Origin: an uncultured bacterium
GTDB taxonomy: Bacteria > Babelota > Babeliae > Babelales > Babelaceae
Length of the DNA stretch: 64,000 nucleotides
Assembly: GCA_963819815.1 (NCBI GenBank)
Contig: CAWFXL010000001.1
Location: 640,001 to 704,000 of the forward strand
Direction: 5' to 3'
This document shows positions 1-37,595 of the stretch, in pieces (positions within the stretch are counted from its first letter, which is position 1; every line of letters starts with the position of its first letter). The notes below the pieces were generated by a model. That model did no database searches. It was given only the letters and a program-made list of their open reading frames with translations, and was not told the origin of the DNA. The position numbers and the translations under genes were made by a program.

Positions 1-1269
1 TGCTCTGAGAGGAGCGTTCAGTGAATCGAAAAGATACATGGTTGAGACACCTTCTTTACGCACAACTGCAAGAAGTACCCAGTGGCAGCCAGCAACATTA
101 TAAATAAAATACGTAACGGGAAGTGTTTGTAATTTTTCTTTGAGATGCTTTATTGCATCGACTTTTTTGCCAGTTTTTAATGCTGTGTGAAGAAAACCGA
201 TTGTTTCAGGACTAACGAGCTCAATGGAGTTCGGGTCAATATTCAGCTGTACCGCTGATGGAATAAGATCAACATCGGCACTATATTCTACTGCACCTCC
301 ACGCTGCAGTTTCTTAAAGGCCGGAAGATTAGTGATAGCTTCAGAAAATACTTTCTCAGCCAGTTCACGTGTCCGCGCAAACGTAATTGGTTGCCCTTGC
401 GATACTTGAGCATTCACCGCAACTAAATTCGCCAGTGCCGAAAATCCACAGGTATCTTCTATTTGGTTAGAGGACACTACGTACACAAAGGGATTCTTAA
501 GAGAAAGCCCAGACAGAGGAGTACCATCATCTAGAGTAGCATAAACAGGACCATGCACATTATTAACGGCTAGTAAGGGATCATATTGTCGACTTGCTAT
601 AGAGCGCCATAATAGGTCGCCCGTATAGAACCAGGGCGATCGGGAAGCCCTTTTTAGTTTTTCTTGCAAGAGCTTTTCTAGCTTCTCCTTTTCAAGAGAA
701 AGTTCTAGATACAGGCTATCATTGCCGGCAGCCACAGCTTGATCTATTTTTTCATCTCGCTCTAAGAGCTTTCCCTGGGCTTTTGTAAAGTCTGCCCGGA
801 CGGGAGATCTTTTGTCAAAATAGTCTTGTATATTCAAGGGCTTGGTAGTTGCTTGAGTTGTAGGTTTTACTGCAGGTCTTGAAAGAGGCGATCTGAAAAC
901 TGCTGGAGCCATATTCGCATTTTGCAGCGATTGGACCGCAGAAACATGCATAGTCTCTGCAACTCGACTCGGTACTGCAGGTGATTTTGTTGCATGCGTT
1001 TGATCGATAATTTGTTGAGTTTCAGCCTCTTCAATAAGCTCGTATGCCTTTCTTCGTGCTATAGGAAGCTCTTCTACATTTTTATCCGCTATGGCAATAA
1101 GTTGTTCTTCAAGCTCGGCTAAATGATATTGATCAATCCCACGTCCTTGGGCTGTTTTTAGAGCATCTTCAAGGAAGATGACATCCGACTGCATGCCTCT
1201 ACACGAGAAGACTAAGAAACCCGCAAACCAAAAGAACAAGCGGATAAAGACTGTGGGGGTTGTTTTCAT
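1..1269 (-). CDS. Secreted papain-fold (Josephin-like) cysteine protease, 3' end runs off the window; paralog of 2706-4046
   Basis: Not in the ORF track. Manual translation from ATG 1269: MKTTPTVFIRLFFWFAGFLVFSCRGMQSDVIFLEDAL...NQIEDTCGFSALANL...YNVAGCHWVLLAVVRKEGVSTMYLFDSLNAPLRA; colinear with the 2706-4082 ORF. Confidence 0.85.
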   Translation of the reverse strand, partial: MKTTPTVFIRLFFWFAGFLVFSCRGMQSDVIFLEDALKTAQGRGIDQYHLAELEEQLIAIADKNVEELPIARRKAYELIEEAETQQIIDQTHATKSPAVPSRVAETMHVSAVQSLQNANMAPAVFRSPLSRPAVKPTTQATTKPLNIQDYFDKRSPVRADFTKAQGKLLERDEKIDQAVAAGNDSLYLELSLEKEKLEKLLQEKLKRASRSPWFYTGDLLWRSIASRQYDPLLAVNNVHGPVYATLDDGTPLSGLSLKNPFVYVVSSNQIEDTCGFSALANLVAVNAQVSQGQPITFARTRELAEKVFSEAITNLPAFKKLQRGGAVEYSADVDLIPSAVQLNIDPNSIELVSPETIGFLHTALKTGKKVDAIKHLKEKLQTLPVTYFIYNVAGCHWVLLAVVRKEGVSTMYLFDSLNAPLRA

Positions 1270-1412
1270 AGCGAATGCCTTTCAATTTGTCAATTAATAG
1301 ACTTATTATGTATTAATATTATCACTAACTGAAAATAAATGCAAGGGTCTGGCGTCTTTCGCCGACCTCAAAGCAGAATCCCTCATCAAAGGGATCAAAG
1401 GGGAGATTTTTG

Positions 1413-1477
1413 AACCAAATGTAGGATGCGTTTGACGTTTGGACTGACCAAATATCAAACGCATCCTACATTTGGTT
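1413..1477. repeat. Perfect 23-bp inverted repeat (REP-like hairpin)
   Basis: AACCAAATGTAGGATGCGTTTGA (1413-1435) pairs with TCAAACGCATCCTACATTTGGTT (1455-1477). Confidence 0.85.
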
Positions 1478-1605
1478 ATTTGTGGGAATAGCTAAATTCT
1501 AGGCGCTTATGCCTTCTTTAAAAGTCGTATATTTCCTGCAGGGAGCCTAGAAAAGTCTCTTGCTTAGATGAAGGATCATACAGATGTCTGCTTCTGAAAG
1601 CCCTT

Positions 1606-2705: not shown

Positions 2706-4046
2706 CTAGTTTCTTTGTACCAGAAGATCATCTATATAGGTAACCAATTTCATAACATCATCACCAACTCTGACAGGAGCATTTGATGAATTGAGAAGAT
2801 ACATACTTGGAACGCCATCTTTGCTAACAACTGCAAGAAGTACCCAGTGACAACCTCCTACGTTATAAATGATATATGTAAAGGGAAGTGTATGTAATTT
2901 TTCTTTGAGATGCTCTATAGCATCGATTTTTCGGCCGGTTTTTAATGCATTATGAAGAAAGCTAATCGTTTCATGGCTAACAAGCTCAATGGTATTTGGA
3001 TCAATCTTGAGCCGTGCAGCTGAAGGAATAAGATCAACATCGGCACTGTAGTTCACTGCACCTCCACGCTCTAGATTCTTGAAGGCTGGCAGTGCTGTGA
3101 TAGTTTCAGAGAATGCTTTTTCAGCCAGTTCACGCGTCTGTGAAAAGGTTATCGGTTTTCCCTGAGCCACCTGAGCATTCACCGCAAACAAATTTGCAAG
3201 CGCCGAAAACCCACAGGTGTTTTCTACTTGGTTAAAAGACACAAGGTACACGAAAGGATTCTTCAGAGGAAGAGTAGACAAAGGAGTACCATCATCTAAT
3301 GCAGCATATACAGGACCATGCACGCTACTAATGGCTAGCAAGTGATCAAAGTGTCGAACCGTCATATAACGCCATAATAGATCCCTCGTATAAAACCAGG
3401 GAGACTGAGAAGCTTTTCTCAGTCGTTCTATGAAGGGCGTTTCTATTCCTTCCTTTTCATGAGAAAGTCTTAGATAGAGGCTATCGTTTTGGGCAGCAAC
3501 AGCTCGCTCTATTTTTTCATCGAGTACTCTAAGCTGGCCTTGGGCTTTTGCAAAGTCTGCCTGGAGAGGAGATCTTTTGTCGAAATAGTCTTGTAGATTC
3601 AAGGGCTTGATAGCTGCTTGAGTGCTAGACTTTATTGCAGGTCTTGAAACTGACGTAGATGAATTCGCGTTTCGCTGCGATTGGGATGTAGTAACATCTT
3701 CATCGTCGTCGTTTGAAAAAATGCGCATAGGTCGTGCACCTTGACTTGGCACTACAGCAGTTTTTGGTTCATTCGTTTGATCGATAATTTGTTGAGTTGC
3801 TGCCTCTTCAATAAGCTCGTATGCCTTTGAGCGTGGAATCGGAAGCTCTTCCTTAGCTGTATCGGCTATGGCAAGAAGTTTGTCTGTAAGCTGTATTCTA
3901 TGATCTGCATCAATCCCCAGTTTTTGTGCTCTTGCCAGCGCATCTTCAAGGAAAATTATGTCCGATTGCATAGCTCTGCACGAGAAAGCTGAGAAACTCA
4001 TAAATAAGAGTGCCCATATGGTAGGGCTTGTGAAGGTTATTTTCAT
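2706..4046 (-). CDS. Secreted papain-fold (Josephin-like) cysteine protease
   Basis: Signal peptide from ATG 4046; C-terminal QVENTCGFSALANL...HWVLLAV...YLLNSS gives Cys-His-Asn order. Confidence 0.8.
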   Translation of the reverse strand: MKITFTSPTIWALLFMSFSAFSCRAMQSDIIFLEDALARAQKLGIDADHRIQLTDKLLAIADTAKEELPIPRSKAYELIEEAATQQIIDQTNEPKTAVVPSQGARPMRIFSNDDDEDVTTSQSQRNANSSTSVSRPAIKSSTQAAIKPLNLQDYFDKRSPLQADFAKAQGQLRVLDEKIERAVAAQNDSLYLRLSHEKEGIETPFIERLRKASQSPWFYTRDLLWRYMTVRHFDHLLAISSVHGPVYAALDDGTPLSTLPLKNPFVYLVSFNQVENTCGFSALANLFAVNAQVAQGKPITFSQTRELAEKAFSETITALPAFKNLERGGAVNYSADVDLIPSAARLKIDPNTIELVSHETISFLHNALKTGRKIDAIEHLKEKLHTLPFTYIIYNVGGCHWVLLAVVSKDGVPSMYLLNSSNAPVRVGDDVMKLVTYIDDLLVQRN

Positions 4047-4227: not shown

Positions 4228-6291
4228 TCATGCAGCTTGTGCATGTTCTTTTTCATGTAGTTGACGCACTAAATGGGCAGCCTTATCAAGAATCACCCCA
4301 GGAAACCCCTGCTGCTTGAGTACCTCAAGCGCAATACACTGATGAGAAACACCAGCTTCAAGCTTAAATGGATACACGTATTCACCCTGATCAGTAGCCT
4401 TAACCGATACTCGGTAATTTTTGAAGGTATCGGTAGCTTCTTCCAATTTGGTAAGCAAAGAGAAGTGGGTTGATATAATACAGATATTATTTTTAAAGGG
4501 GGCCAAATGATGTGCAAAACTATACGCTGCAGCAGAACCTTCTACTGGAGCAGTCCCATTAAATATTTCATCAAAACAGGCAAAACTAAACTCACCCGAT
4601 CCTTGCTGTTCTACTCGCTCAATTAAGCGCTGCGCCTGGCATGCTTCTGCCATAAAGAGAGAGTTGCCTGCACTAATATCATCCACAACATGTAAGGATG
4701 TTTTAATCGTATGGAACGGCGTAAAATGCATTGCAGAAGCGGGGACAATCCCAATGGTTTGCCCTAAGATGATACAAAGTGCTAGTGATCTTAGGATGGT
4801 CGACTTACCACCCGCATTGGGACCAGTTATAATCATATTTTGTCGCTCAGTGCCTCCCAATAAGACATTATTTGAGATAGCGAGTTTTGAATCAATTAGT
4901 GGATGCCACATTTCATGTATATCTAAAAGAGGAGTCTGTTCCGCGGCATAGGTAGCAAAGCAAAACTTGACCTGCTGCGTCTCATGTTCTTTCATAAGCT
5001 TTGCCAAAGACACATACATATCGATTTTACCAATATCAGTTGCGAGTTCTTTAAGCTCATCTTTTACCTGATGCACAAGCTTATGCGCTCGTACCGCATG
5101 TCCCCTATTACTTGTCAATGAAAACTGTTTTTTAAACGTATCTCGCCCCAAAAGATCGATGAGCTCTTTTAACCTCGGTGATGCGGGAACTTTGACCTCA
5201 AAGAAATCAACTATTCCTTTACATTCCTCATAGAGCTCAGGACAGCTTTTCATCTCTTCAGAAAGCTTCCGTGCATTCATCATAAACTGAGCATAATGCG
5301 AGGTCATTGCATGCATATATTCTTCAAGATGATAGCAATCTGAAAGCCATTGAATGCTTTGCTTAGAATGATACCATGAGAGCAATCCTGTACCAAGGGC
5401 AATCCCAATATTCATCCATCTGTTATTCCTATCCCAGAGCATCCCTGACAAGGACCATGCCCCTCCCCCCAATGAGTCTCTAGCTAAAGTTGCCACTCTC
5501 TCTGAAGGTTGCTTGTTAGCTATCCTTTGAATCGCATACCATGATAATACACACATACTTCCACAGCATAATGCTATCCACTTCAATCGCTGTGCATGCC
5601 CAGCAGTACTTCCGCAATTTAAAGCGACCGTGCTTTTATTAAGAAAAGCAAACATGCCCCCATACTGTTCCTCCGAAAATTCAAGCAAATCCTCGACATA
5701 TCTTTTCATGTAGTCAGTCTGGTAAAAAGCAAGAAATACAGGCTCAGCAGTGCGCATGGCACCTAGTGCCTCACTAAAAAGCTTCATTTTCTCTTCATCA
5801 GCCACAAAGCCCCGTATGATATCTTGCCTCTTTTTCAAGCGACTAACATCGGTTAGCGGTGAAGCAAGATGTAAAAAAAGAGATACTTTCCCAAGCTCGG
5901 TCTGAGTGCGACACAGAGCTTGCGCCATATACACATCAGGCTTGGATTGTCCAGAAAAAAGAGTTAGATCAGTCCACGTAGTAGCCGGATCTAACAATAC
6001 GTTACTCTGAAGCTGAAGCCTTTCCTCTGCTCCTTTAAAGAGATCAAATGCGGCAGATCTATACCACTTCTTGAGCGGACTACACTTACGCTTCCATTCA
6101 CCATCTATAAATTCACGACTCGAGGAATAGTTAGCTGGCTCTTCCTGCTCCCAGCTAAACGATGCAAGATTATGCTCTGCAACCGCGGTAACGGTTGCGC
6201 CTCCGGCCGGACGAGGGCAGGGCTCTTCAGCAAGCACACGTGGAAAAAGGAGCACACTAAGAATAATCGATAGCCGAAAAATAGTATTCAT
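4228..6291 (-). CDS. MutS-related ATPase (domains III/V) with signal peptide and hydrophobic segments; no mismatch-binding domain
   Basis: ITGPNAGGKST Walker A, SLFMAE, FDEIFNGT, STHF, GVS..CIAL motifs. Confidence 0.85.
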   Translation of the reverse strand: MNTIFRLSIILSVLLFPRVLAEEPCPRPAGGATVTAVAEHNLASFSWEQEEPANYSSSREFIDGEWKRKCSPLKKWYRSAAFDLFKGAEERLQLQSNVLLDPATTWTDLTLFSGQSKPDVYMAQALCRTQTELGKVSLFLHLASPLTDVSRLKKRQDIIRGFVADEEKMKLFSEALGAMRTAEPVFLAFYQTDYMKRYVEDLLEFSEEQYGGMFAFLNKSTVALNCGSTAGHAQRLKWIALCCGSMCVLSWYAIQRIANKQPSERVATLARDSLGGGAWSLSGMLWDRNNRWMNIGIALGTGLLSWYHSKQSIQWLSDCYHLEEYMHAMTSHYAQFMMNARKLSEEMKSCPELYEECKGIVDFFEVKVPASPRLKELIDLLGRDTFKKQFSLTSNRGHAVRAHKLVHQVKDELKELATDIGKIDMYVSLAKLMKEHETQQVKFCFATYAAEQTPLLDIHEMWHPLIDSKLAISNNVLLGGTERQNMIITGPNAGGKSTILRSLALCIILGQTIGIVPASAMHFTPFHTIKTSLHVVDDISAGNSLFMAEACQAQRLIERVEQQGSGEFSFACFDEIFNGTAPVEGSAAAYSFAHHLAPFKNNICIISTHFSLLTKLEEATDTFKNYRVSVKATDQGEYVYPFKLEAGVSHQCIALEVLKQQGFPGVILDKAAHLVRQLHEKEHAQAA

Positions 6292-10173: not shown

Positions 10174-10561
10174 TATCGCCTCCTTGTCTATACAGCTCTA
10201 GCGTTTTATGTAATGTTTCCAAAGCCAATAGAGCACAACGCATTCTAGTGGGCCCAAGCGTTATCCCAAGAAGAGCGAGCATTCTTTCTTGGGAAAGATT
10301 CTTAAGCTCCTCAAGCGAGCTGTGTTTGACACGCTCCGTAAGCATCGAAGCCGATGCTTGGCTGATTACACACCCTTTACCTTGAAATGCTATGCCCGTT
10401 AAGCGGCCATCCTCGACACGTATGGAAAGAGCAATTCTATCGCCACATGAAGGATTAAACACTTCAGCAGATATCTGCGCATCTACAAGATCACCATAGT
10501 TGCGCGGATGACGGTAATGTTCAAGTAATTCTTCTCTATAGAGAGGTTCATCCATAAGCAC
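10166..10561 (-). CDS. sufU: SufU/NifU-type Fe-S assembly scaffold/sulfur-transfer protein
   Basis: HYRHPRNYG, NPSCGD, GCVISQASAS and RMRCALL motifs. Confidence 0.92.
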   Translation of the reverse strand: MLMDEPLYREELLEHYRHPRNYGDLVDAQISAEVFNPSCGDRIALSIRVEDGRLTGIAFQGKGCVISQASASMLTERVKHSSLEELKNLSQERMLALLGITLGPTRMRCALLALETLHKTLELYRQGGDNA

Positions 10562-11540: not shown

Positions 11541-11616
11541 ATTCCCCTATTATTGTTTCTCAAAAAATGGCTCGATTGCTATCAAGCTGAGATAAACTTC
11601 CACAGGAGTTATCGAT

Positions 11617-13777: not shown

Positions 13778-16348
13778 ATGAAAACGTTAAAGCGACTTTT
13801 TAAACTACTTCTTATATGCCTTTTCAGTGCGCAGTCGCAGGTCAACTGGCAGCTTCGTGCCATGAATGTAGATGCACAAGTGCTACAAGAAAATCAACCG
13901 GAAAACAATCCAGTTCTGCCAGAAGGTGTTTTCGCACTACCAGGAAGTCCAGGCAAGTCAAAAAATGGCTGGCATATCAGGAACATTTCAAACCAAGAAC
14001 TCTACGCAGCCTGGTATCTTTTTAAAGATCAACCAAACGGTGTATGGACTCGTATTGATGAACAAATGCACATCCTAAAGTGCGATGAGGAAAAACATAT
14101 CCCCTTTCCCGATAGGCCTAACCTGGAAAAAAGATTCTTCGAGTTCAATCCTCAAAGGCGATTACTGGTCAGCACCAATCGGCATATCCATGCTGATGAA
14201 ATTAAAGTAGATGCCGAAGGGAACCTTCCCCAAGGGATTGTAGCCTTTTCGCAGCATGACCTGGGGACATTTCAAGGCAAATGCACCTTACTTGTTACAC
14301 AGAATGGCCCAGAAGTTCGCCTATTAAACAAGGATATCCGATTAAATAACACAACAAGCAAAGAACTCTATGCCGCCTTATATGATGTAGAGTTACAGGA
14401 TGGAACCGCTACGAAATGTGACTTAGATCAAAAGCTATCGCCACAGCTCAGTGCCATTCTTAAATTACCTCAATGGGGCCTAAGGTTGCAGAAATCTAAG
14501 AAAATCATTCTGCTGCTCTCTGAGACTAAAGAAAAACTACAACCAAAAATGGCCCAGCAGGAATGGTCCAAACTTATCAATAAATCATTTGAATCATCAA
14601 ACTGGTATGATTATTATTGGGTGGGGTCGTATGATATTATTATGAGTGTTGCGGGACACTACTCTATTGTAGGGCAAGGCGGAGGATTCTTCAATGCATG
14701 CCTCCGATCAATTGGGGATATCAATCCCTTTACGGTTAGAGAAATAGAGAATCTTGAAAACAAGCTGCAAGCAGCCCCCCTACCAGAAGCAAATCCTGAT
14801 GTCGTGGTTACAACAGGAAAAACATCAAACTTACAGAGAGAAAAAGCCTATCTTGATGAGCGCATCAAGATAGTACGAAAAGCTTTGAATGACCTTATCA
14901 ATGATCCAGAGTATATGCTTGACGCTGAAGAAGCACCCCCTACGGTAGCCTTTGTTTTTTCAGGCGGCGGCATTCGTGCTCTTACTGCAACTACAGGCTA
15001 TCTCAGAGGAGCTGATAATGATGAGGGTGGAAATATCTTTAACTGCTCAACCCATATGATGGGTCTTTCTGGATCAACATGGGCAATCAATACCCTTGTT
15101 GCTTCAGGCATGAGGCCTAGTGAATTTGCAGAAAAACAACGGACCAAACTCGGAAAAGATATTAAACAGCTCTATTTTGAGCTGATTAATGACAGTATCG
15201 ATTACAGGAAACGCCGTTTTATGCAAAGTCGTTATAATCAATATACAGGGATAATTGGGAACTATGGCCATGCCCTTGGTAATGCCCTATGTAAGGATTT
15301 CTCGGTCAATGGAAAGCAAACCCATGATATTACCCTCTCTGACCTACAAGCTCATCTTGAAAAAGCTGAGTACCCCTTACCCATAAGTGTTGCCACATAT
15401 TCAGGTGAAACTGACACCTTAAGGACCTGGTACGAGTTCAGCCCTTATACGGTAGGTACTGCCCAACATGGCGGAGGATGGGTCGATACAAAATATTTTG
15501 GCTCACATTTTAAAGCTGGCAGTCTTCAGCAAGCCATTCCAGAGCTTCCACTTACCTATTATTTTGGAGTATGGGGATCAGCTTTTGCCCTTGCACCGCA
15601 AGATATAGCTAAGTCATCAACCCTAGGCGGCATTGCCGCGTATACTGTCAGTACATTAAGCTGGCTATCCAATCAGATTTGTGCACTTATGGCACGAAAG
15701 GTCTCAAAGACCGAAAGTGATAGACTCACCGAGGCACATATAGCGAACTTCTTCTATCAGATGAAGGATGGAAACGGTATGCATAGCATATTGGCGAATA
15801 AAGAAACAATTCCTCTCATTGATGGCGGAATTACCAAAGACGCCTCTCATCGGCACAACTTCGCTTCAGTCCCTGCACTTTGCCGAGAGATTGACGTTCT
15901 CATAATGTGTGATGCACATGAACATCCTAATAAGGATAAAGCATCTCACTTGGTAGCCGCTGCCAAAGAAGCTCGTCGCCTTGGGTTACCCTTCCCCGAA
16001 ATAAAAGAGGAAGGACCTCAAGCAGAAGCCCTCAAAAAGCAGGTCTCCACGCTCATTATGCCGACTCATGATAATGAACCAATGGTACTCTATATGACCA
16101 TCAAAAGGAACGCCATATATGATGAGAAGATAAAAGAGAACCTACATGAAGGATTTGATCCAGATTCAAGTGCTCCTTTTAAAGGTGGGAAACATTTTAC
16201 TCCCACGGTCAACTTTAGTTATACAGAGGAACAGTATGACCTTCTTACAGGCCTATCTGAAGAGATCTTTATGCAAAGTAAGGAGCAGATAAAAGATGCA
16301 CTTAAAAAAGCCATTAAAAGAAAAAGAAGCGCTCGTAAAAAAGCGTAG
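13778..16348 (+). CDS. Secreted cytosolic-PLA2/phospholipase-B-like lipase
   Basis: Signal peptide; FSGGGIRA oxyanion motif, GLSGSTW nucleophile, WYEFSPY, GVWGSAF, IDGG catalytic Asp. Confidence 0.88.
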   Translation: MKTLKRLFKLLLICLFSAQSQVNWQLRAMNVDAQVLQENQPENNPVLPEGVFALPGSPGKSKNGWHIRNISNQELYAAWYLFKDQPNGVWTRIDEQMHILKCDEEKHIPFPDRPNLEKRFFEFNPQRRLLVSTNRHIHADEIKVDAEGNLPQGIVAFSQHDLGTFQGKCTLLVTQNGPEVRLLNKDIRLNNTTSKELYAALYDVELQDGTATKCDLDQKLSPQLSAILKLPQWGLRLQKSKKIILLLSETKEKLQPKMAQQEWSKLINKSFESSNWYDYYWVGSYDIIMSVAGHYSIVGQGGGFFNACLRSIGDINPFTVREIENLENKLQAAPLPEANPDVVVTTGKTSNLQREKAYLDERIKIVRKALNDLINDPEYMLDAEEAPPTVAFVFSGGGIRALTATTGYLRGADNDEGGNIFNCSTHMMGLSGSTWAINTLVASGMRPSEFAEKQRTKLGKDIKQLYFELINDSIDYRKRRFMQSRYNQYTGIIGNYGHALGNALCKDFSVNGKQTHDITLSDLQAHLEKAEYPLPISVATYSGETDTLRTWYEFSPYTVGTAQHGGGWVDTKYFGSHFKAGSLQQAIPELPLTYYFGVWGSAFALAPQDIAKSSTLGGIAAYTVSTLSWLSNQICALMARKVSKTESDRLTEAHIANFFYQMKDGNGMHSILANKETIPLIDGGITKDASHRHNFASVPALCREIDVLIMCDAHEHPNKDKASHLVAAAKEARRLGLPFPEIKEEGPQAEALKKQVSTLIMPTHDNEPMVLYMTIKRNAIYDEKIKENLHEGFDPDSSAPFKGGKHFTPTVNFSYTEEQYDLLTGLSEEIFMQSKEQIKDALKKAIKRKRSARKKA

Positions 16349-16427: not shown

Positions 16428-18428
16428 ATGGACTATCGACTATCCCTTATTTCTCTTATATGGATAGGTACTCTCTGGAGTAGTCAAACAGCAGTAGTCG
16501 TTCCTATCATTAAAGAGCTTGCAACAACTTGTGCATCTGAGACTCATGAAGTATCAGATCTTTTAAAAACTTTCTCTAAACTTCCTGAACCCGTTCAAGA
16601 GCAGCTCATCACAACTGATTATCTCAGTAAAGGCTATGTAGAATCCAAAGGTCTCATAAATGCAAAACCGCTGTTTATCGCAAAGACTGAAGTGGTCGAA
16701 CTTAAAAGCCCGTACGATGCCCACGGTCACAGGCGACCAACGCGTCACCCTTTGAACCCTTTTATCATAGGTCAAACAGAAAAAGAGCCTGTGTGCTTTG
16801 CCTACACCTACGATGCTGTAGTAAAAGTTCCCAAAGAAGAAGCGTACTTTGTTCCCCATTTTTTTGATCACTCCACCGGCAAAAAATATTTGATGCACCC
16901 TGATCATGCCAATGAAGATTCAGTGCGTCAGTTCATAGGGCCTAATAAACATGGAGTCATCGTATTCTTCGATCATAATGAAGGCCAGATGCATATTGGG
17001 AGACTCTATGAAGAGATATACAATCGCAAGGCTTCCTGTTGGGATCCTGAATGCCATAAGGCAAAAATGCTAGAAGGCTTCAATCGGCCTGACCTTGTCA
17101 ATGATTTCGCACCTGAGTTTGATCCCGCCGATCCTGTTACAGCAATTTCGCTGGATGCTGGAGAATTAGGCGAACCAATCGATGTCTCTTCCCATGATGC
17201 CCGCACTTTGGTGAAGGTGCTCATATATGGCTATGTACAGCATCTTTATAAGAATTATATCTTAGAGGGAAGGAAATCCGGCCGTGTGTTGCTTCATGAG
17301 TTCAACGAACGCGCAATGGGCTTATGTAACAGTTTTCTGTTTACTCCAAACCTTTCTACTAAGGAACTCCCTGTGCATCTAGAAGGTTCGGCAAGAGATC
17401 TTATTCTCGGCAAGGATCGATCAACTGCATGGATCCTCGATGGTCGAGCTTTGTATACCTACAGCATACCAACAAAAAAACAAACGACCGTTTGTACACT
17501 TCCCAATCTGGGATGCCGACAAGAGAGTGTCAAGGCAAGTCCGGATTATGAAAAGAACGATACGTCTGAAAAGATCACACGCTTTATCCTCGCTCCGGAT
17601 GAACAGTATGCACTCCTTGGAGGAGATCAAGGCTCGGTATTGTTAGTCGATGTTGCGAGCAACAATTGTCATGTGATTGAAGCGATGTCCGGTCATGCGA
17701 TTGTAGATATGTGGTGGAGTGAAAAAAATCGCATCGTGCTATTAAGTAGATCTGGAGTGGTTAAAGCCTATACTCTTAAGATCGGTACACAAGATGCGTA
17801 CGTAGAAACACTCATGAATGGTAACCAAAGTAACGAACGTGCAACAGTTTCTCAAGAATCCACCCAAGACGAAAATAGTACATCAGCTATACACAAACCT
17901 CGAATACAGCTCGCAGGTAATGCACGCCAAATTAATCTTACCAAAGATAATGTAGTTGCCTGGATACTCGACAAAGAAGCGCTCTATACCTATAGCCTAA
18001 AAACCCTCGAGCAAAAGCTTGTAGCCAAAATGCCGCAGTTACCTCCACGAAAAGATACCTATGTGTATGACTCTCAAACAGAGGAACATCTGCTAACTAC
18101 TGAGTGTGAACTTATTGACTGTTTTGTCGTATCTCCCCATGAACAGTATGCCCTCTTAGGAGGTAGCCAAGGGTCAGTACTCTTGTTCGATTTTGCACGT
18201 AATACTCATCATGAAATCGATGTACTAGCCGATGATGGCATCAAAGCGATAGTCTGGAGCCAAGAAGATCGTATACACATAGACTGCATATCTGGCTCGT
18301 ATAAAGAATTTACTCTTCACGTACTTCCCGATGGGAGTTTCACCAAAACAGATGAGCATTTTAGGTCAAGTAAGTTCGAATCTTGGGAAATAGATGAACT
18401 TATTGCTGCTTCCAAACCGCTAGCATGA
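16428..18428 (+). CDS. Secreted WD40-like beta-propeller protein with internal duplication
   Basis: Signal-like N-terminus; two copies of AWILD..ALYTYS...EQYALLGGxQGSVLLxD. Confidence 0.7.
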   Translation: MDYRLSLISLIWIGTLWSSQTAVVVPIIKELATTCASETHEVSDLLKTFSKLPEPVQEQLITTDYLSKGYVESKGLINAKPLFIAKTEVVELKSPYDAHGHRRPTRHPLNPFIIGQTEKEPVCFAYTYDAVVKVPKEEAYFVPHFFDHSTGKKYLMHPDHANEDSVRQFIGPNKHGVIVFFDHNEGQMHIGRLYEEIYNRKASCWDPECHKAKMLEGFNRPDLVNDFAPEFDPADPVTAISLDAGELGEPIDVSSHDARTLVKVLIYGYVQHLYKNYILEGRKSGRVLLHEFNERAMGLCNSFLFTPNLSTKELPVHLEGSARDLILGKDRSTAWILDGRALYTYSIPTKKQTTVCTLPNLGCRQESVKASPDYEKNDTSEKITRFILAPDEQYALLGGDQGSVLLVDVASNNCHVIEAMSGHAIVDMWWSEKNRIVLLSRSGVVKAYTLKIGTQDAYVETLMNGNQSNERATVSQESTQDENSTSAIHKPRIQLAGNARQINLTKDNVVAWILDKEALYTYSLKTLEQKLVAKMPQLPPRKDTYVYDSQTEEHLLTTECELIDCFVVSPHEQYALLGGSQGSVLLFDFARNTHHEIDVLADDGIKAIVWSQEDRIHIDCISGSYKEFTLHVLPDGSFTKTDEHFRSSKFESWEIDELIAASKPLA

Positions 18429-19851: not shown

Positions 19852-20877
19852 ATGTTTAAAGAAATAGTACCCTTAGGACTCTTAGTGATGTCTTTTTCAC
19901 TATTTCCTATGAATAAGACCAAGGTTGATACAGTACTTATTGTTCCTATGCAGTTCCGAGCAGACACAAAAGAGTGGTATCTCTTACTTGGCCAAGATAC
20001 GGGAGAGGCATACGGTGGGTTTAAGAAAAAACTAGTGCGTGAAACCCCCGATCAGGCAACAGTAAAGACCCTAGTTAACCAAACTAATGGTGTATATAAT
20101 GATAAGAACTTTACCCTAGATACTGCTTATAAAGTGGAAACTCCCCTGGGAGAGATGCTTTATTTTGTGAACGTGCCTTTTATTCCTGATGCAGACTTGA
20201 AGAAAAAAGGTGCGACTAAGCGATTTAAATCTGACTTTAGGTGGGTTCGTGTAGAAACACTACTCAAATCCAAGGGAGACTTTACTCCTTCAGGAAGCAC
20301 CAAGCCTGTGTACCCTGGGTTTGTAGAGAAACTCAAGAAGTATTTGCCGGATGCTCTGCAGAGTTTACCAAAACCCATTCCGGCAACTTCATCACAATCC
20401 GTTAGTGCTTCTGTACCCATAACAACCAAAGCCGTCCAGTCATCAAGCTCAGCAACTGCAACTTCATCAAAAGCGCATCATGTTACGAACTATACACATT
20501 TGGCTCAGTTTGTACTTGATAATAATCCACATGAGCCGAGTGAGAAGGAGTCGTTAGCAATCACTCCGATGTATGAAGACCTAGTGGACCGAGGTATTAT
20601 CGACAACTTTTTGATACGATATGAAGACTTACGACATCAAGATGGATCGACCTTAACCGAGAAAGAAAAGAAAGAGATTATCGATTATTTGGAAGCTAAC
20701 GACCATCATGCAGATGATATGACTTTAAGACTTGCCAACAACAATATTCATGTTCTCGCGCAAGGAACGCACAACCCTCAATTAAAAAATAAAGTATGGA
20801 GTTATGTGCATCGTTATATGAGAAGCCTACCAAAACTCGTTGAAGAGCTAAAACAACAAAATACCAAGGCTCGCTAA
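19852..20877 (+). CDS. Secreted hypothetical protein with degenerate Nudix-like N-terminal domain
   Basis: Signal-like N-terminus; YLLLG...GG..E.PDQA...NQTNG resembles a Nudix box; S/T-rich linker. Confidence 0.6.
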   Translation: MFKEIVPLGLLVMSFSLFPMNKTKVDTVLIVPMQFRADTKEWYLLLGQDTGEAYGGFKKKLVRETPDQATVKTLVNQTNGVYNDKNFTLDTAYKVETPLGEMLYFVNVPFIPDADLKKKGATKRFKSDFRWVRVETLLKSKGDFTPSGSTKPVYPGFVEKLKKYLPDALQSLPKPIPATSSQSVSASVPITTKAVQSSSSATATSSKAHHVTNYTHLAQFVLDNNPHEPSEKESLAITPMYEDLVDRGIIDNFLIRYEDLRHQDGSTLTEKEKKEIIDYLEANDHHADDMTLRLANNNIHVLAQGTHNPQLKNKVWSYVHRYMRSLPKLVEELKQQNTKAR

Positions 20878-22213: not shown

Positions 22214-23095
22214 ATGTTAATACATTGTATAGTAAGCATGATGATGCTTACATTTACATGCACCGCATTCTGCATGGAGGATGATTCCTCTGTTCGTGTG
22301 CTTGCAAAGGAAGCTGCAATTGGTACAGTTGCTGGAGCCGCAGAGGTAACTGCTAACTCTCCACTTATCTATTTCAAGAATGCTATGCAGCAGGGCCATA
22401 AAATATCTATGGATCCAAAGGTATGGTACCGTGGGTACGGAATGAATGTCACCGCAATGGGACCTACAACTGCTATCCAAATCTGCACAGATAGAGGACT
22501 TGAAACAGTTGTGCCGGGAACCGATTTGTACAGCAAAGTAGCTCGTGCATTTACTGCCGGAGCTCTTTCTGCAACGGTAAATGGGCCCATTGAGTTGGTC
22601 ATCAGAGATCAACAGGAACATAATGGAACTGCACTAGCAACCTGCAAAAAAGTGCTTTCGGGTGGTGGATTGCGTGCGTTTGGTCGCGGATGGGCAGCAA
22701 CCGCGTTGCGTGAAGGCGGATTTGCCACGGGGTACTTGGTTGCTTTCCCTATGGCTGAAGAAGCAATAAAGAAAGCACAAGATGCCGCTCAAAGCAATAT
22801 AGAGGATCCATGGGTAAAAGCGATAGTATCACACCCTGCCTGCTCCTATGTTGGTGCTGGAGCTGCGACGGGTATCGCTTTTGCCGTGGCAACACATCCT
22901 TGTGATACGGTGAAAACAAAGCTCCAAGCGGATTACCAAGGTGCTTTATTCAAGAACACCCAAGATGTGGTACGAACTGTGATTGCTCAGAAAGGCGTCG
23001 CTGGTCTTTTCGCAGGCGCATCACCACGAGCAGTACGTGCTGGATTAGCAATTCCCTTGATAGGTACTATAAAAAAGTATTTTTCAGAGGAATAA
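22214..23095 (+). CDS. Mitochondrial carrier family (SLC25-like) protein with N-terminal signal-like leader
   Basis: Three ~100-aa repeats with Px[DE]xx[KR]-type signatures (PLIYFKNAMQ, PIELVIRDQQ, PCDTVKTKLQ) and YRG/GRG/FAG motifs. Confidence 0.9.
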   Translation: MLIHCIVSMMMLTFTCTAFCMEDDSSVRVLAKEAAIGTVAGAAEVTANSPLIYFKNAMQQGHKISMDPKVWYRGYGMNVTAMGPTTAIQICTDRGLETVVPGTDLYSKVARAFTAGALSATVNGPIELVIRDQQEHNGTALATCKKVLSGGGLRAFGRGWAATALREGGFATGYLVAFPMAEEAIKKAQDAAQSNIEDPWVKAIVSHPACSYVGAGAATGIAFAVATHPCDTVKTKLQADYQGALFKNTQDVVRTVIAQKGVAGLFAGASPRAVRAGLAIPLIGTIKKYFSEE

Positions 23096-23340: not shown

Positions 23341-25614
23341 ATGCTGCATAGAAAACTATTTCTTGGTGGATTTCTTGTATGTGAGATAATCTGTAGTGCC
23401 GCTTCACACAGTCGTAGCATTGAACCACAGGTCGTTGCCATACTACCTCCTGAGAAAACGTTCTTTTTCGGGACTAGACAATGGCCTCTCAAAGTAGAAC
23501 CACATTTGCTGCATTTCATGGAAAATTATACCGAAGAAAATGGGTACGTATATTTACCAAAAATTTCGTATCATACAGGACTTCTGGTAACCGACCTCCT
23601 TCATTTGCTGCATCGTCTTGAATCTGAAGATGCGCGCCATCACCAAGAATTTAAAGACGAGCTCATAGAGCGTATTGGTAGTCTTGAAAATGGAGAATTG
23701 CTTGAGGCCTTCTATGCTACTCATCATTTAAAGATCTCTGCTCTTAAGGAAGCTATTAAAAAAGCTATTAGAGAACGATCCTTCCTGGGAAAGAAGAAAA
23801 TCAAAGTATCTAACATCCTACTTCACTTACAACACTCTCGGCCAGAAATCATGTTTTTACACTGGGCAGAACCACTTCAGAACTGCACCATGCAAGAGGG
23901 CGTTATTGATGTAACTGCATTTCCCCGCTCTACAATAGAGTTTATCCTTACGCAACTAGACTTGGTCAATGAGACAATCGTCACACGTGGGAACGAAGAT
24001 TCAGTTAGCAAAAAAATTAAAGCGCATATTAAAAAACTTGAAGGCAACGATCTCGTAAAGCTTTTCAATGCTTCACGTGTCTTACATATCTCTACTATCC
24101 ATTGGTTAGCCGAAGAAGCTCTCCGAGAACTTGAACAGCCCACGAGTATTACTGCTCAAAACCTCCTAGATTTACCAACTGATACTCGTAATACGTTCCT
24201 TAAAGAAACGATACGCAAGTTGTTTGAAATAAGGACCCGTTTGGTCGATAACGGTATTGCTAGTGGTACACTTCATGTGCCACCTGATGGGTCATTAGTC
24301 CTTGCTGGTTGTTGTTATGATTGTACTATGATTGCTCTTACGACGGAGAGCACTCACCGTCAATCTTTCGTGGGTCATGAAAGACCTGTAACAGCTATCT
24401 GTATAACATCCGACAATCAGACTTTGGTAAGCGGTTCTGATGATGGTACAGTGCGTGTTTGGGATAGGCAGGGAGAGCAGCGTGCTGCTTATTCGCATCC
24501 TCAACCTGTAAGTACTCTATGCCTTTCACCCGATGGAAAAACAATCGTTGCAAGCTTTGATGACGGGATTATGCTCATTTGGAATTTCCCCGATGCTCCA
24601 AACCTGATTTCTGGTAATGCACTAGCTACTGCACGCGATTTATCAGGTACAAAAACATGGGAAGCTGATCCAGCATGGTTAGCAAAAGAACAAGGCCACT
24701 CAAAGATTACAGCAACCTGCGTCTCATCAACTGGCAAGATAATCATTACGGGCACCGAAGATGGTGTTGTACGTATATGGGATATGAATGGTAGGCTAAA
24801 AGCAGTTTGCCATTGTGCACTGAAAAAAAAGATTCTTGCCGTGTCTACGACGCCTGATGATATTCTTAAAGTGTCCACGAGTCCTGATGATACGGTCATG
24901 GCAGTTACAGGCGATGGGATGGTGCTTATGTGGGAACAGTCTACACACTTTGTGAGGGGAGTATACCCATACATTGAAGGGTTATCACTCATCGATTTTT
25001 TTGTAGCTAAAGAAGGAGCCCAGGTGCCTACCTTAGTACAATGCGAAGTATCTCCTAATGGTTCTTTGGGCGCAACAGGAGTTCATGCAGCTTATATTGC
25101 GCCAAATGGCAGCATAGTCATTTTAGGAACGAATAAAGGAACGGTGAATATCTGGGACATCATAAATACCACAGCATGCAGAGTCTGCAGAGGCCATGAA
25201 GGTTGTATTAACTCGGTAAGCATGTCGCCCGATATGACCTCTATTATTTCAACTGCAGAAGATGGAACGGTACGTATTTGGAGCAAAGATGGTCAGTTGC
25301 TGGCAATATGTGATCATGATGACGATCAAGAGGCTACCAAGGCAGTCCACGTAACAGGAAATGGTAAGATTGTTGCCAATTCTGATGATGGAAGCATATA
25401 TGCTTGGAATATACAAAAAAACATACAATGGAACTTCAATTTCGGTACTGTGCGAAGCTATATTGCACAAGCGAGCAGCAATCAAGTGAGAGGAATCTGG
25501 TCTCTGTTGCAGCGCCACTCTAAAGAATATGGCATCGCTGATCAAGAAGAATGTTGGGAAGAAATACAAAGGCTTATAGCTAGAAGCACATCTAGAACTA
25601 GCTCAAGAACCTAA
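23341..25614 (+). CDS. WD40-repeat protein with N-terminal tandem Skp1/BTB-like segments
   Basis: GHERPV..SGSDDGTVRVWD and GHEGCINSV..DGTVRIWS repeats; two N-terminal helical L.E..A...L.I..L segments. Confidence 0.85.
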   Translation: MLHRKLFLGGFLVCEIICSAASHSRSIEPQVVAILPPEKTFFFGTRQWPLKVEPHLLHFMENYTEENGYVYLPKISYHTGLLVTDLLHLLHRLESEDARHHQEFKDELIERIGSLENGELLEAFYATHHLKISALKEAIKKAIRERSFLGKKKIKVSNILLHLQHSRPEIMFLHWAEPLQNCTMQEGVIDVTAFPRSTIEFILTQLDLVNETIVTRGNEDSVSKKIKAHIKKLEGNDLVKLFNASRVLHISTIHWLAEEALRELEQPTSITAQNLLDLPTDTRNTFLKETIRKLFEIRTRLVDNGIASGTLHVPPDGSLVLAGCCYDCTMIALTTESTHRQSFVGHERPVTAICITSDNQTLVSGSDDGTVRVWDRQGEQRAAYSHPQPVSTLCLSPDGKTIVASFDDGIMLIWNFPDAPNLISGNALATARDLSGTKTWEADPAWLAKEQGHSKITATCVSSTGKIIITGTEDGVVRIWDMNGRLKAVCHCALKKKILAVSTTPDDILKVSTSPDDTVMAVTGDGMVLMWEQSTHFVRGVYPYIEGLSLIDFFVAKEGAQVPTLVQCEVSPNGSLGATGVHAAYIAPNGSIVILGTNKGTVNIWDIINTTACRVCRGHEGCINSVSMSPDMTSIISTAEDGTVRIWSKDGQLLAICDHDDDQEATKAVHVTGNGKIVANSDDGSIYAWNIQKNIQWNFNFGTVRSYIAQASSNQVRGIWSLLQRHSKEYGIADQEECWEEIQRLIARSTSRTSSRT

Positions 25615-28673: not shown

Positions 28674-29388
28674 CGTAACCCTCCTGATCAATTTTCTGAG
28701 CTAAGGAATAGGAGCCGGTAGCTCTGATGGATCCTTGAGAAAGAACATGGACATACTCAGGCATAACATACTCAAGAAGTCTCCGATAATGAGTAATGAC
28801 AAGCAGAGAAAACGAACTTCGCTGTTGCTCTAAAGTAAGCACCTTGCTCACCTGTTTTAATGCATCAACATCAAGCCCTGAATCGATCTCATCAAGAATC
28901 GCTAACTTCGGCTTAAAAAGGAGAATTTGCGCAACTTCAAAGCGCTTTTTTTCACCGCCTGAAAACCCTTCATGCACATTGCGGTAGACAAAGCTGTGAT
29001 CAAGCTGAACAGCATCAAAAGCTTCATAGACGCGCTCCTTGAAAGCAGTAACCGAAACCTCTTCTTGAGTAAGCATACGATGCGCTTCTTTTAAAAAGGT
29101 AAACACCTGTACGCCAGGAATTGCGGGTGGCTGCTGGGGCGCTAAGAAAAGACCACTACGAGCACGATGCTCAATCGGCATCGTAAGCAACTCTTTGCCT
29201 TCAAAGCGGCATGACCCTGCCACGATGTCATACTGAGGATACCCCATAAGAGCAGATGCTAACGTGCTTTTTCCTGAGCCATTTGAACCCATCAAAGCAT
29301 GCACTGTTCCTGGAGCAATCGTTAAGGAAAGATTTTTGATTATAGGACGATTCTGAAAACAGATCGTAAGATCAGCAATCTCGAGCAT
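28657..29388 (-). CDS. sufC: Fe-S assembly ATPase SufC
   Basis: [31 protein letters not shown] and ITHY motifs. Confidence 0.97.
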
Positions 29389-34084: not shown

Positions 34085-34127
34085 GGTCGTATGAATTTTT
34101 CACAAAATTAGGTATATGGGGAGTGCT

Positions 34128-35444: not shown

Positions 35445-35537
35445 GCAGTCGTATCGTTACAAAAAACCAATGCCGTTTATGTTTATGGGCGCACCTCAAT
35501 TATGTAGAGCTCTAACCAGAGCTCTTTGTCCAGCAGA

Positions 35538-36593
35538 TTATGAAGCGAGCTGTTTGAGAGCATCTTCCGTAACGCCCTGTTTACGAAGCCACGAAACTGC
35601 ATCAATTGCAGCAGCAGCACCCCGTCCAGCAGCAACAATAGCTTGGCGATAGATGTCATCTTCTACATCACCGGCTGCAAATACACCCGGAACTGAAGTC
35701 GCCTGGGTCCGACCCTCAACGAGAATATGGCCATTTTCAGAAAGGGCAAGCTGCCCTACAAAGAGATCGGTATTCGGATGATGTCCTATGGCTAAGAAGA
35801 CGCCATCTGCGTCTAAAACCTCTGTTTTGTTCGTCTCAAAGTTCTGAATTTCAATCCCCGTAACTCCTTCGTTGTTACCAAGAATACTCTTTACCTGGAC
35901 CCCATACCGAGGAGGTTTGATCGTCGGATATCCCTGCAGTTTCTGTTGCATTGAATGAGCAGCGCGCATATGCTGCCTCCGCACCAAACAGGTAACGCTT
36001 TTAACATGAGGAGCAAGCTGGAGAGCCTCTTCAACTGCTGAATCTCCACCACCTATAACAAAAACATCTTTCCCCTTAAAAAATAGCCCATCACAGAGGG
36101 CACATGATGATACCCCGTTGCCATAGTGGGTTTCTTCTCCCGGGACATTAAGCATTTTGGGAGTGGCACCCGTTGCAATAACCAAAGAGAGCACTCGGTA
36201 CATGATACCTTCTTCTGTTCCTATTACAAAAGGCCATTGGCTAAGGTCTACTGACACAATGGTCTCATCAAGAATTTTTACACCCGCCTGACGGGTCTGC
36301 TCAATCATAGTATCCATGAATATATCACCTGCAACCTTCATAACGCCGGGATAATTGTCAATGAATGATGTTTTAGTAAGCAATCCACCAGATGTCTGCC
36401 CCATAAAGAGAGTCGTTGGCATTCCAAGACGAACACTATATTGCGCAGCAGCTAACCCAGCAGGGCCCGATCCGAGAATCACCATAGGAAGTAGGTCAGG
36501 CACTTTAGCTTTAGAAAGTTCCTCACCCATAAGGCTCGAAAAGCACAATCCCATCACTGCTACAAAAAGAATAGATATATAATTTTTCATCAC
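35538..36593 (-). CDS. trxB: Thioredoxin reductase with an N-terminal signal-peptide-like extension
   Basis: GSGPAG, CALCDG active site, GGGDSA and GVFAAGDV..YRQAI motifs. Confidence 0.93.
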   Translation of the reverse strand: MMKNYISILFVAVMGLCFSSLMGEELSKAKVPDLLPMVILGSGPAGLAAAQYSVRLGMPTTLFMGQTSGGLLTKTSFIDNYPGVMKVAGDIFMDTMIEQTRQAGVKILDETIVSVDLSQWPFVIGTEEGIMYRVLSLVIATGATPKMLNVPGEETHYGNGVSSCALCDGLFFKGKDVFVIGGGDSAVEEALQLAPHVKSVTCLVRRQHMRAAHSMQQKLQGYPTIKPPRYGVQVKSILGNNEGVTGIEIQNFETNKTEVLDADGVFLAIGHHPNTDLFVGQLALSENGHILVEGRTQATSVPGVFAAGDVEDDIYRQAIVAAGRGAAAAIDAVSWLRKQGVTEDALKQLAS

Positions 36594-36740
36594 AATAACC
36601 TCATCATAGTTTTCTGATACCCTTTATACTCCATATAGCATACCGAAACTAGTCACTGCCAGTCAAAGGGTCATGCCCCTTGCATCAAAGATCACTTCAA
36701 AGAAAGCGCTGGACCAAACTTTATGATAGTTACTAACCGG

Positions 36741-37595
36741 TTAGCCATGGGTTTCTTCACTATTCATAACAAAATCATCAAAAAGACTCAAGGGATCTGC
36801 TTCATTTCTATATTTTTCCACAGCTTTACCAAGAAGCTCTTTCTGATGCTCATGTAAATGGACCGTGAAATGATCATGATCTATAAGTGCTGCAGGGTTT
36901 TCATGAGCTTTATCCATAAGCTCAAGAAGCGCCCGATCAGAAGAGATAATCTCTTTTTGTTGGCTGGTTAACGAACGTTTAAACCGTTCCATGATTGGTA
37001 AATTGAGAGCTGATTTGATAAGTAAGCCAAGTATACCAAGTGTCCCCAAGCCAAGAGCTATTCGCCCCTTATGATTCCAAAACCATCCCGCATCCTTCGA
37101 TAATGACTCGCGAGTAGAAGCAAGGTCTCCTCGCAAAGCCGTGCCAAGGTGATAACGATCGGCACTTTTCTTAGCCCCATACAGTACGAGTAAAGCTACT
37201 CCCATTGCCGCGAAGTCCTTCTTAGATGGCCCTTCACGCTTAATGCGATCATAGACTATATACATAGGAACCCCAACATTTTCAATAAGGTAATCTTTAA
37301 GATAGTGTCTCAAGGACTTCTGTTCACTTTTTTGGGCACTTTCTAAAGATTTGAGAGCTAGTAAGGTGAGTACCCAGACCCCGATAATTGGACTGGTAAC
37401 GTAGGACACGTCAGCAGCACCGTTCATAAGAAGAATAGCTAGCTCTTCAGATGATTCCGCGATTTTATGTGAAGTGCATTTGTGCTCAATGAACATCTTT
37501 TGAGCATCAGGCTCTGGTGTTGGGGCCATACCATATAGAGGAGCCAGTGACGCACTCATTAGGATTCCCCAAAAAAACGTAGTCACTTTTTTCAT
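36741..37595 (-). CDS. Hypothetical secreted/membrane protein
   Basis: 284-aa ORF, signal peptide plus three hydrophobic segments. Confidence 0.7.
   Translation of the reverse strand: MKKVTTFFWGILMSASLAPLYGMAPTPEPDAQKMFIEHKCTSHKIAESSEELAILLMNGAADVSYVTSPIIGVWVLTLLALKSLESAQKSEQKSLRHYLKDYLIENVGVPMYIVYDRIKREGPSKKDFAAMGVALLVLYGAKKSADRYHLGTALRGDLASTRESLSKDAGWFWNHKGRIALGLGTLGILGLLIKSALNLPIMERFKRSLTSQQKEIISSDRALLELMDKAHENPAALIDHDHFTVHLHEHQKELLGKAVEKYRNEADPLSLFDDFVMNSEETHG

What the first reader, a model, noticed from the sequence alone, without database searches (positions are those of the whole stretch)
1..37595. Shared 'signal peptide then Met' N-terminal code on unrelated effector-like proteins
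Seen: six predicted exported proteins, of five unrelated types, have a Met directly after the likely cleavage site: FSCRG|MQSD (ATG 1269), FSCRA|MQSD (4046), QLRA|MNVD (13778), SLFP|MNKT (19852; Pro at -1 is atypical), TAFC|MEDD (22214) and PLYG|MAPT (37595). Established: SPase I cleaves after small -3/-1 residues; eukaryotic NatB acetylates Met-Glu/Asp/Asn/Gln termini; N-terminal Met is generally stabilising in Arg/N-degron pathways. Inference: mature effectors may start like native host proteins (5 of 6 match NatB substrates), or the motif is a sorting tag for an unknown outer export route. It could also mark host-derived genes that were fitted with a signal cassette.
Basis: partly seen in the sequence, partly recalled or inferred. 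Interest (0 to 1): 0.72.

Follow-up and report, generated by a model that had tools for sequence, protein, structure and literature searches.

The report
Methionine rule for exported parasite effectors
In a phylum of bacteria that parasitise protists, the exported proteins that look aimed at the host are predicted to begin with methionine (or alanine, serine, glycine) once their export signal is cut off, while cell-envelope proteins are not; most likely this keeps the host from destroying them.

Summary
The pattern is real and wider than the window. The genome belongs to Dependentiae (Babelota). A cleavage predictor blind to the +1 residue puts Met at +1 in 57 of 513 signal-peptide proteins, against 3.1% in shuffles. 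The bias depends on protein class: 43 of 86 ankyrin/eukaryote-like proteins versus 1 of 33 envelope proteins (blind model 34/86 vs 1/33). The non-Met effector-like proteins mostly start with Ala, Ser or Gly. Residues that the eukaryotic Arg/N-degron pathway recognises fill +1 in 6% of effector-like and 67% of envelope proteins, with no gap at +2. The bias recurs in 13 of 14 relatives; Bacteroidia (2/73) and E. coli (2/46) controls lack it. The second Met has no ribosome-binding site.

Best reading: Sec export, signal peptidase I cleavage, type II secretion, and selection for host-stable N-termini. A type II sorting tag is not excluded, and NatB mimicry is unproven.

Cleavage sites are predicted with home-made models, not measured. 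One of the six (13778) is doubtful, and some families tolerate destabilising residues. I found no description in print or in earlier scan notes.

The parts
1..1269 (-). Exported circularly permuted Ulp1/C48-like cysteine peptidase (485 aa in the genome; runs off the window start). Signal peptide 1195-1269, Met(+1) codon 1192-1194
   Evidence: weak PF02902 hit E=0.0026, below Pfam cut-off; C-G...H-W...D-S motif order as in the Babela permuted Ulp1 alignment
2706..4046 (-). Paralog of the above (446 aa, 66% identical). Signal peptide 3972-4046, Met(+1) codon 3969-3971
   Evidence: no Pfam hit at E<=0.05
13778..16348 (+). Exported PLA2_B lysophospholipase (856 aa). Met at residue 29 (13862-13864); cleavage just before it is doubtful
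   Evidence: PF01735 E=1.3e-27; models prefer earlier sites; Met at the junction in 8 of 17 homolog N-termini read by eye
16428..18428 (+).
   Evidence: weak beta-propeller hits; site
19852..20877 (+). Exported Nudix-fold protein with a degenerate Nudix box (341 aa). Signal peptide 19852-19908 ending in Pro, Met(+1) codon 19909-19911
   Evidence: model of residues 1-200 pLDDT 79.8; Foldseek Dcp2/RppH/NUDT7, E about 1e-5; blind matrix P=0.92
22214..23095 (+). Mitochondrial-carrier-family protein with signal peptide (22214-22273), Met(+1) codon 22274-22276
   Evidence: PF00153 E=4e-23; Met at the junction in 18 of 22 family members, 16 in one alignment column
23341..25614 (+). Exported WD40 protein with predicted Ala(+1); fits the wider rule
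   Evidence: PF00400 E=2.5e-40; site
36741..37595 (-). Exported protein of unknown family with two predicted TM segments (284 aa). Signal peptide 37530-37595, Met(+1) codon 37527-37529
   Evidence: no Pfam or useful Atlas hit; Met in 3 of 8 homologs

Best explanation
Dependentiae export host-directed proteins with ordinary Sec signal peptides (sequence shows). Signal peptidase I removes the peptide after a small -1 residue, here also Cys or Pro (predicted). The proteins then cross the outer membrane, most likely through the type II secretion system (genes shown; use inferred). Cleavage exposes a new first residue that host cytosolic ubiquitin ligases read. Lineage-wide selection has therefore removed Arg/N-degron residues (R, K, H, L, F, Y, W, I, N, Q, D, E) from +1 of effectors but not of periplasmic or outer-membrane proteins (pattern shown; cause inferred). 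Met, often followed by D/E/N/Q, is the favoured solution because it is not an Arg/N-degron, is poorly trimmed by host Met-aminopeptidases and is not a Gly/Ala/Ser/Thr/Cys terminus (inferred). Ala/Ser/Gly are the fallback.
For: Class contrast in G000: Met 43/97 vs 3/63 (blind model 35/97 vs 1/63). Under a strict filter applied equally to both classes, 43/86 vs 1/33 (blind model 34/86 vs 1/33). Arg/N-degron termini: 10/86 vs 22/33; among non-Met proteins 5/43 vs 22/32.

The effect sits on the first residue only. Degron-type residue frequencies at +1..+6 are .06 .62 .45 .30 .63 .57 in effector-like and .67 .64 .52 .55 .48 .55 in envelope proteins (blind model .15 vs .64 at +1).

It survives collapsing paralogs: 28 of 66 vs 1 of 43 families for Met; 0.05 vs 7.8 for K/R/H. 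Relatives: 64 of 359 Met in 14 genomes, ankyrins 27 of 65. Seven of seven full-length Babela permuted-Ulp1 proteins in a published alignment have Met at the junction.

The degron set, MetAP rule and need for an unstructured N-terminus are from PMC11441550 passages. Precedent for Sec-secreted bacterial proteins being N-end-rule substrates: titles of Moors 1999 and Schnupf 2007, seen only in a reference list. Type II genes are present (secretins in 14 of 14 relatives); VirB4, FHIPEP and VipB were not found in this 88%-complete genome.
Against: No cleavage site or half-life was measured, and SignalP was not available. The model that sees +1 was trained on this genome and over-calls Met (4 of 46 in E. 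coli vs 2 of 46 by the blind rule).

Exceptions exist. 22 of 89 signal-bearing carriers have degron-type +1. Two of 7 USP deubiquitinases have E or Q. Six of 7 Nudix-domain relatives of 19852 have W/Y/Q, although there W starts the first strand. [quoted passage not shown] In relatives the ankyrin-versus-rest contrast for degron termini is modest (7/42 vs 68/195, p=0.027).

Ala is a generic SPase I +1 residue (15 of 46 in E. coli). Host identity and its N-degron machinery are unknown. The same data fit a sorting tag. Fisher tests over paralogs and kin overstate significance.
Confidence: 0.55

Rival explanations
1. Sorting tag: the first residue of the mature protein is read in the periplasm. 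Uncharged Met/Ala/Ser/Gly termini are taken by the type II system (or a chaperone) and K/R/E/D/Q termini are retained, which gives hundreds of unrelated cargos one simple export signal.
For: The same class and position specificity. Envelope proteins are unusually poor in Ala at +1 (3 of 33 vs 15 of 46 in E. coli) and rich in K/R/E (15 of 33), as if retention were also coded. Every one of 14 relatives has 2-3 secretin matches. Paralogs that differ at +1 keep the same class more often than chance (mixed pairs 0.44 vs 0.54, p=0.036).
Against: The excluded set matches the eukaryotic Arg/N-degron list, which a bacterial receptor has no reason to follow. Orthologous carriers and USPs switch between Met and D/E/Q/N/H (at least 22 changes among 90 carriers). 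Large probable surface proteins (SprB-repeat, collagen) start with Q and E, though their route is unknown. No reader protein was identified.
Confidence: 0.2
2. Vestigial start codon: signal peptides were added upstream of formerly cytosolic or host-derived genes and the old ATG simply persists, with little selection on it.
For: In carriers the Met lies 8-48 residues before helix 1, overlapping the 4-36 residues (two outliers longer) seen for the initiator Met of signal-less relatives. Many Met(+1) proteins carry eukaryote-like domains.
Against: Non-Met effector-like proteins have Ala/Ser/Gly (35 of 43) rather than one-step neighbours of ATG (I/L/V/T/K/R, 7 of 43). +2 is D/E in 25 of 37 signal-bearing Met carriers but 6 of 47 signal-less ones (p=3e-7). 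Met stays at the junction while the linker length varies and flanking columns have diverged. It does not explain the missing degron residues.
Confidence: 0.1
3. Processing preference: the Dependentiae signal peptidase (or a dedicated paralog) cuts fastest before Met/Ala/Ser, and abundant cargos that must be released quickly have adapted to it.
For: The lineage's cleavage motif is unusual (Leu at -3 in about a third, Pro/Cys tolerated at -1). G000 has two S26-family genes.
Against: Envelope proteins use the same peptidase yet lack Met (1 of 33). Many relatives have one S26 match only, including G011 and G013 with strong Met bias. The second G000 copy lacks the catalytic Ser/Lys (motif recalled).
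Confidence: 0.08
4. Prediction artefact or a second translation start at the Met that makes a cytosolic isoform.
For: Home-made predictors; they disagree on individual sites. Met is common in hydrophobic signal regions.
Against: Composition-keeping shuffles never reached the observed rate in 500 tries. The same pipeline recovers the known Gln rule in Bacteroidia (20 of 73 Q, 2 of 73 M) and gives 2 of 46 in E. coli. Anti-SD pairing <= -5 kcal precedes 50% of first ATGs (n=535), 5% of Met(+1) codons (n=97) and 4% of non-Met +1 codons (n=385; p=0.29).
Confidence: 0.07

Closest known systems
Bacteroidetes Q-rule (Bochtler et al. 2018, PMC5837995; passages and section 16 read; PMC10653852 listing and abstract start only)
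   Same: A phylum-wide preferred residue exposed by signal peptidase I; linked to protein stability according to the title of the 2023 paper.
   Different: The Q-rule covers about 71% of all SPase I substrates, is not compartment-specific and needs a periplasmic glutaminyl cyclase. Here the residue is Met (or Ala/Ser/Gly), it is confined to host-directed classes, and no modifying enzyme was identified.
N-end-rule control of Sec-secreted Listeria proteins ActA and listeriolysin O (Moors 1999, Schnupf 2007; titles only)
   Same: A bacterial protein matured by signal peptidase meets the host N-degron pathway in the cytosol.
   Different: Those are single proteins. Here it is a statistical, proteome- and phylum-wide shaping of +1 across unrelated families.
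Signal-peptide-bearing ankyrin, USP and permuted Ulp1 effectors with type II secretion in Babela massiliensis and Chromulinavorax (PMC4378268, PMC6561590)
   Same: Same phylum, same protein classes, same export machinery; 7 of 7 full-length Babela Ulp1-like proteins show the Met.
   Different: Neither main text contains the word 'methionine'; the Babela paper only calls these signal peptides 'somewhat atypical'.
Sorting codes at processed N-termini: the lipoprotein +2 rule and Plasmodium PEXEL x-E/Q/D (both recalled, no call)
   Same: Information carried by the first residues left after cleavage; acidic or amide +2 residue.
   Different: No lipid Cys and no RxL motif here; sorting is not shown.

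Membership tests
Sec/SPase I substrates | Basic n-region, hydrophobic h-region, small -3/-1 residues | tested here: met
   Architecture in all six; genome-wide motif learnt blind to +1 has A/G/S at -1 in 70%. Site of 13778 inconclusive.
Sec/SPase I substrates | Cleavage actually occurs immediately before the Met | not testable with these tools
   Needs N-terminomics; blind predictors rank the Met site first for 2 of 6 window proteins each.
Q-rule-type +1 rule | One residue strongly enriched at +1 across a phylum | tested here: met
   57/513 in G000; 64/359 in 14 relatives from 9 families.
Q-rule-type +1 rule | Applies to most SPase I substrates regardless of compartment | tested here: not met
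   43/86 effector-like vs 1/33 envelope.
Q-rule-type +1 rule | A dedicated periplasmic enzyme modifies the exposed residue | not tested
   No search for a modifying enzyme; two signal-bearing GNATs noticed, not followed.
Arg/N-degron-avoiding termini | R,K,H,L,F,Y,W,I,N,Q,D,E and Met-bulky depleted specifically at the first residue | tested here: met
   10/86 vs 22/33; no depletion at +2; list from PMC11441550.
Arg/N-degron-avoiding termini | First residue governs half-life in host cytosol | not testable with these tools
   Needs reporter assays in a protist host.
NatB substrates (specificity recalled) | Met followed by D/E/N/Q | tested here: inconclusive
   49/97 vs 114/385 in G000; 65/97 vs 116/275 in relatives: enriched, but far from general.
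NatB substrates (specificity recalled) | N-terminal acetylation occurs | not testable with these tools
   Needs mass spectrometry; Nt-acetylases are described as ribosome-associated.
Dual-start (two isoform) genes | Ribosome-binding site before the second ATG | tested here: not met
   5% vs 50% for first ATGs; same as non-Met controls.
Permuted Ulp1/C48-like peptidases of Babela (1269, 4046) | Catalytic motifs in order Cys, His-Trp, Asp-Ser | tested here: met
   4046 has Asn for Asp. The AAA domain fused in Babela gave no Pfam hit here.
Type II secretion substrates | Sec signal plus T2SS genes (GspD, E, F, G) in the genome | tested here: met
   passage through the system not testable.

The most novel reading that the evidence does not exclude
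The first residue left by signal peptidase is itself the address. A periplasmic or secretin-associated reader passes Met/Ala/Ser/Gly-start proteins into the type II system and retains K/R/E/D/Q-start proteins, so one residue both sorts hundreds of unrelated cargos and protects them from the host N-degron pathway. This would be a simple linear type II secretion signal; I know of none described (recalled).
Probability: 0.2. Interest if true: 0.9.

Novelty: new variant of a known kind. Interest (0 to 1): 0.7.

Why it matters
Dependentiae export a third or more of their proteome through Sec, mostly proteins of unknown function, and there has been no way to tell host-directed from envelope proteins. 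The +1 residue gives a sequence-only predictor: 39 of 237 unlabelled exported proteins here carry Met. If the best reading holds, a host degradation pathway has shaped the N-termini of a whole bacterial phylum's effector set, so far known only for single proteins. If the rival holds, it is a simple type II secretion signal. Practically, gene callers may start such genes at the second Met and hide the signal peptide (suspected for a few carriers).

Tried and rejected
Second start at the Met: rejected. A dedicated second signal peptidase: not supported. A strict Met-only tag: rejected, half of effector-like proteins start A/S/G/V. An RNA element in the window: no Rfam match.

Convergence in other endosymbiont lineages could not be tested. 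The plasmid ankyrin search gave only distant hits that I did not fetch. The Bacteroidota ankyrin search found 0 of 301 at too strict a threshold, with a silent control. Only 2 of 10 carrier homologs looked up had a name, so the taxonomy of the 89 signal-bearing carriers is unverified, and the profile that ranked them contained the Met column.

Single-sequence fold of 19852 was useless (pLDDT 39) and a PDB sequence search with its alignment found nothing. Atlas searches for 4046 and 37595 gave only leads under 0.9. The carrier tree (FastTree, midpoint root, weak support) shows at least 22 Met/non-Met changes vs 29.6+-2.4 shuffled but no direction. Blind rule-based sites in 15 carriers were inconsistent. 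Papers on Holospora and on the Ciliophrys endosymbiont held nothing on this (passages).
Full report
Source. The window is G000:C1:640001-704000 of a 1.64 Mb, 88%-complete genome. RpoA relatives at 55-80% identity make up 44 of 49 loci; 19 of the 49 titles name Dependentiae, TM6, Babeliales or Babelota, the best named one at 78%. Passages of PMC6561590 and PMC4378268 describe this phylum as protist parasites: 44% of CDS with signal peptides in Chromulinavorax, 79 of 126 ankyrins with signal peptides in Babela, and type II secretion the only system detected in Babela.

Observation. The six N-termini are real. 13778 is a PLA2_B phospholipase and 22214 a mitochondrial carrier. 1269 and 4046 are 66% identical and carry Cys, His-Trp and Asp/Asn-Ser motifs in the permuted order published for Babela Ulp1-like peptidases. 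19852 has a Nudix fold. 37595 is unknown. Individual cleavage sites are uncertain, and 13778 is doubtful.

Genome-wide test. SignalP was not available, so I built three predictors: a rule blind to +1, a weight matrix blind to +1, and a matrix that sees +1. The first 45-55 kb of C1 (61-66% GC) was dropped as foreign. Of 1378 ORFs, 558 looked signal-bearing. The blind rule gave Met in 57 of 513 scored sites (11.1%) vs 3.1+-0.8% in 500 shuffles of the cleavage region. The matrices gave 59-62 (blind) and 96 (full) of 558; Met background is 1.6-2.5%. On a revised set of 535 the counts were 69 and 103, or 8.1% and 14.7% after weighting 298 paralog clusters. Controls: Bacteroidia gave Gln as top residue (20 of 73) and Met in 2 of 73, recovering the published Q-rule (PMC5837995). 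Forty-six annotated E. coli exported proteins, chosen by me from five regions, gave Met in 2, 3 and 4 by the three models, so the full model over-calls somewhat.

Not a start codon. Anti-SD pairing of -5 kcal or stronger precedes 50% of first ATGs (n=535), 5% of Met(+1) codons (n=97) and 4% of other +1 codons (n=385).

Class specificity. Labels came from Pfam and a local ankyrin profile, extended to paralogs. I sent 319 non-ankyrin representatives to Pfam; 52 of the 535 lay outside fetched loci, and the hits of the last batch were not added to the labels. Met(+1): ankyrins 33/75, other eukaryote-like 10/22, envelope 3/63, Sel1/TPR 2/9, cytosol-type enzymes 2/24, unlabelled 53/342; blind model 35/97 vs 1/63. 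For one search I added three secretins, three permuted Ulp1 proteins and one USP by motif, after seeing their termini, and applied one strict filter to both classes. Effector-like n=86: M43 A20 S12 V3 G3 I2 L1 E1 K1. Envelope n=33: K7 E4 R4 A3 G3 Q2 S2 D2 and one each of T, L, V, W, M, Y. Where blind and full models agree, Met is 33/69 vs 1/28. Collapsing to families gives 28/66 vs 1/43.

What is really excluded. With the Arg/N-degron list from PMC11441550, 10 of 86 effector-like and 22 of 33 envelope termini are degrons; among non-Met proteins 5 of 43 vs 22 of 32. The depletion is at +1 only (6% vs 67%; at +2, 62% vs 64%). E. coli lies between (16 of 46, counted). After Met, D/E/N/Q is enriched (49/97 vs 114/385; relatives 65/97 vs 116/275), and bulky hydrophobics are depleted in relatives (6/97 vs 46/275) but not significantly in G000.

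Phylum. In about 16-100 kb samples of 14 relatives from 9 families, the blind rule gave 64 of 359 Met (shuffles 1-5%), with at least one in 13 of 14 and 0 of 7 in G035. Several regions were picked near ankyrin hits, which raises the effector share. RpoA-flanking loci, not so picked, gave 20 of 123. Relatives' ankyrins: 27 of 65 (blind 20). In the Babela supplement (Additional file 13, part 1 of 2), 7 of 7 full-length proteins have Met right after the signal-like segment. Within families: carriers 18 of 22 close members and 37 of 89 more distant representatives (blind 24-26); USPs 5 of 7; PLA2_B 8 of 17; 37595 3 of 8; 19852 Nudix domain 1 of 7.

Mechanism. Shown: signal peptides, one canonical SPase I, type II genes (GspF and GspG; GspE-type ATPases; three tandem secretins; secretins in 14 of 14 relatives), no VirB4, FHIPEP or VipB match, and the class- and position-specific +1 pattern. 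Inferred: cleavage before Met, passage through the type II system, arrival in host cytosol, and selection by host N-degron ligases (0.55). The sorting-tag rival (0.2) predicts the same statistics and needs experiment. A vestigial start may be the origin in carriers, where Met sits about where signal-less relatives start, but +2 differs (D/E 25/37 vs 6/47) and the alternatives to Met are not mutational neighbours of ATG.

Against. Degron-type termini occur in 22 of 89 carriers, 2 of 7 USPs and 6 of 7 Nudix relatives. In the last, Trp begins the first strand, which could shield it (inference). The ankyrin-versus-rest contrast in relatives is modest (7/42 vs 68/195). Tests over kin and paralogs overstate significance.

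Novelty. Ten literature searches returned no description of this rule, and 'methionine' does not occur in the main text of the two isolate papers. The library lacks most subscription journals. The comparative TM6 papers of Yeoh 2016 and Weisse 2023 (recalled) did not appear and were not checked, and eight other Babela supplementary files, including the ankyrin table, were not read. It is best filed as a new, effector-restricted variant of +1 rules such as the Q-rule.

Noticed in passing
G000:C1:1 to about 55000 (outside the window): GC 61-66% against 42% elsewhere; looks like foreign DNA in the assembly and holds a further secretin match at 22164.
   Followed up: partly
L061 (G000:C1:973986-974453): Short second signal-peptidase-family protein lacking the catalytic Ser and Lys (motif recalled); short forms seen only in G000, G001 and G016 of 41 genomes.
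   Followed up: partly
L232, L235, L236, L237, L238: Relatives of 19852 are signal-bearing Nudix-like plus NADAR fusions (PF08719, E about 1e-32): exported candidates for reversing ADP-ribosylation. The window protein has a different C-terminal domain.
   Followed up: partly
G000:C1:1178086-1187508: Three tandem secretin genes of 790-940 aa; 2-3 secretin matches in each of 14 relatives.
   Followed up: partly
window 4228-6291 (-): MutS domain III/V protein that appears to carry a cleavable signal peptide.
   Followed up: no
L122, L126 (G073): Ankyrin family with Pro at -1 and alternating Met/Ala at +1, supporting Pro(-1) cleavage in this lineage.
   Followed up: partly
P0073, P0082, P0108: Signal-less carriers starting Met-Glu/Asp and nested among signal-bearing ones; possibly genes called at the second Met.
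   Followed up: no
L113:31-693 (-), L103:31-573 (-), L074:18475-19104 (-): Signal-bearing GNAT acetyltransferases and a DnaJ-domain protein; they need cytosolic cofactors or partners, so may be host-directed.
   Followed up: no
window 9061-13477, 18400-19536, 27330-29388: SUF iron-sulfur genes (SufU, SufS, SufD, SufB, SufC types) are scattered among effector-like genes.
   Followed up: no
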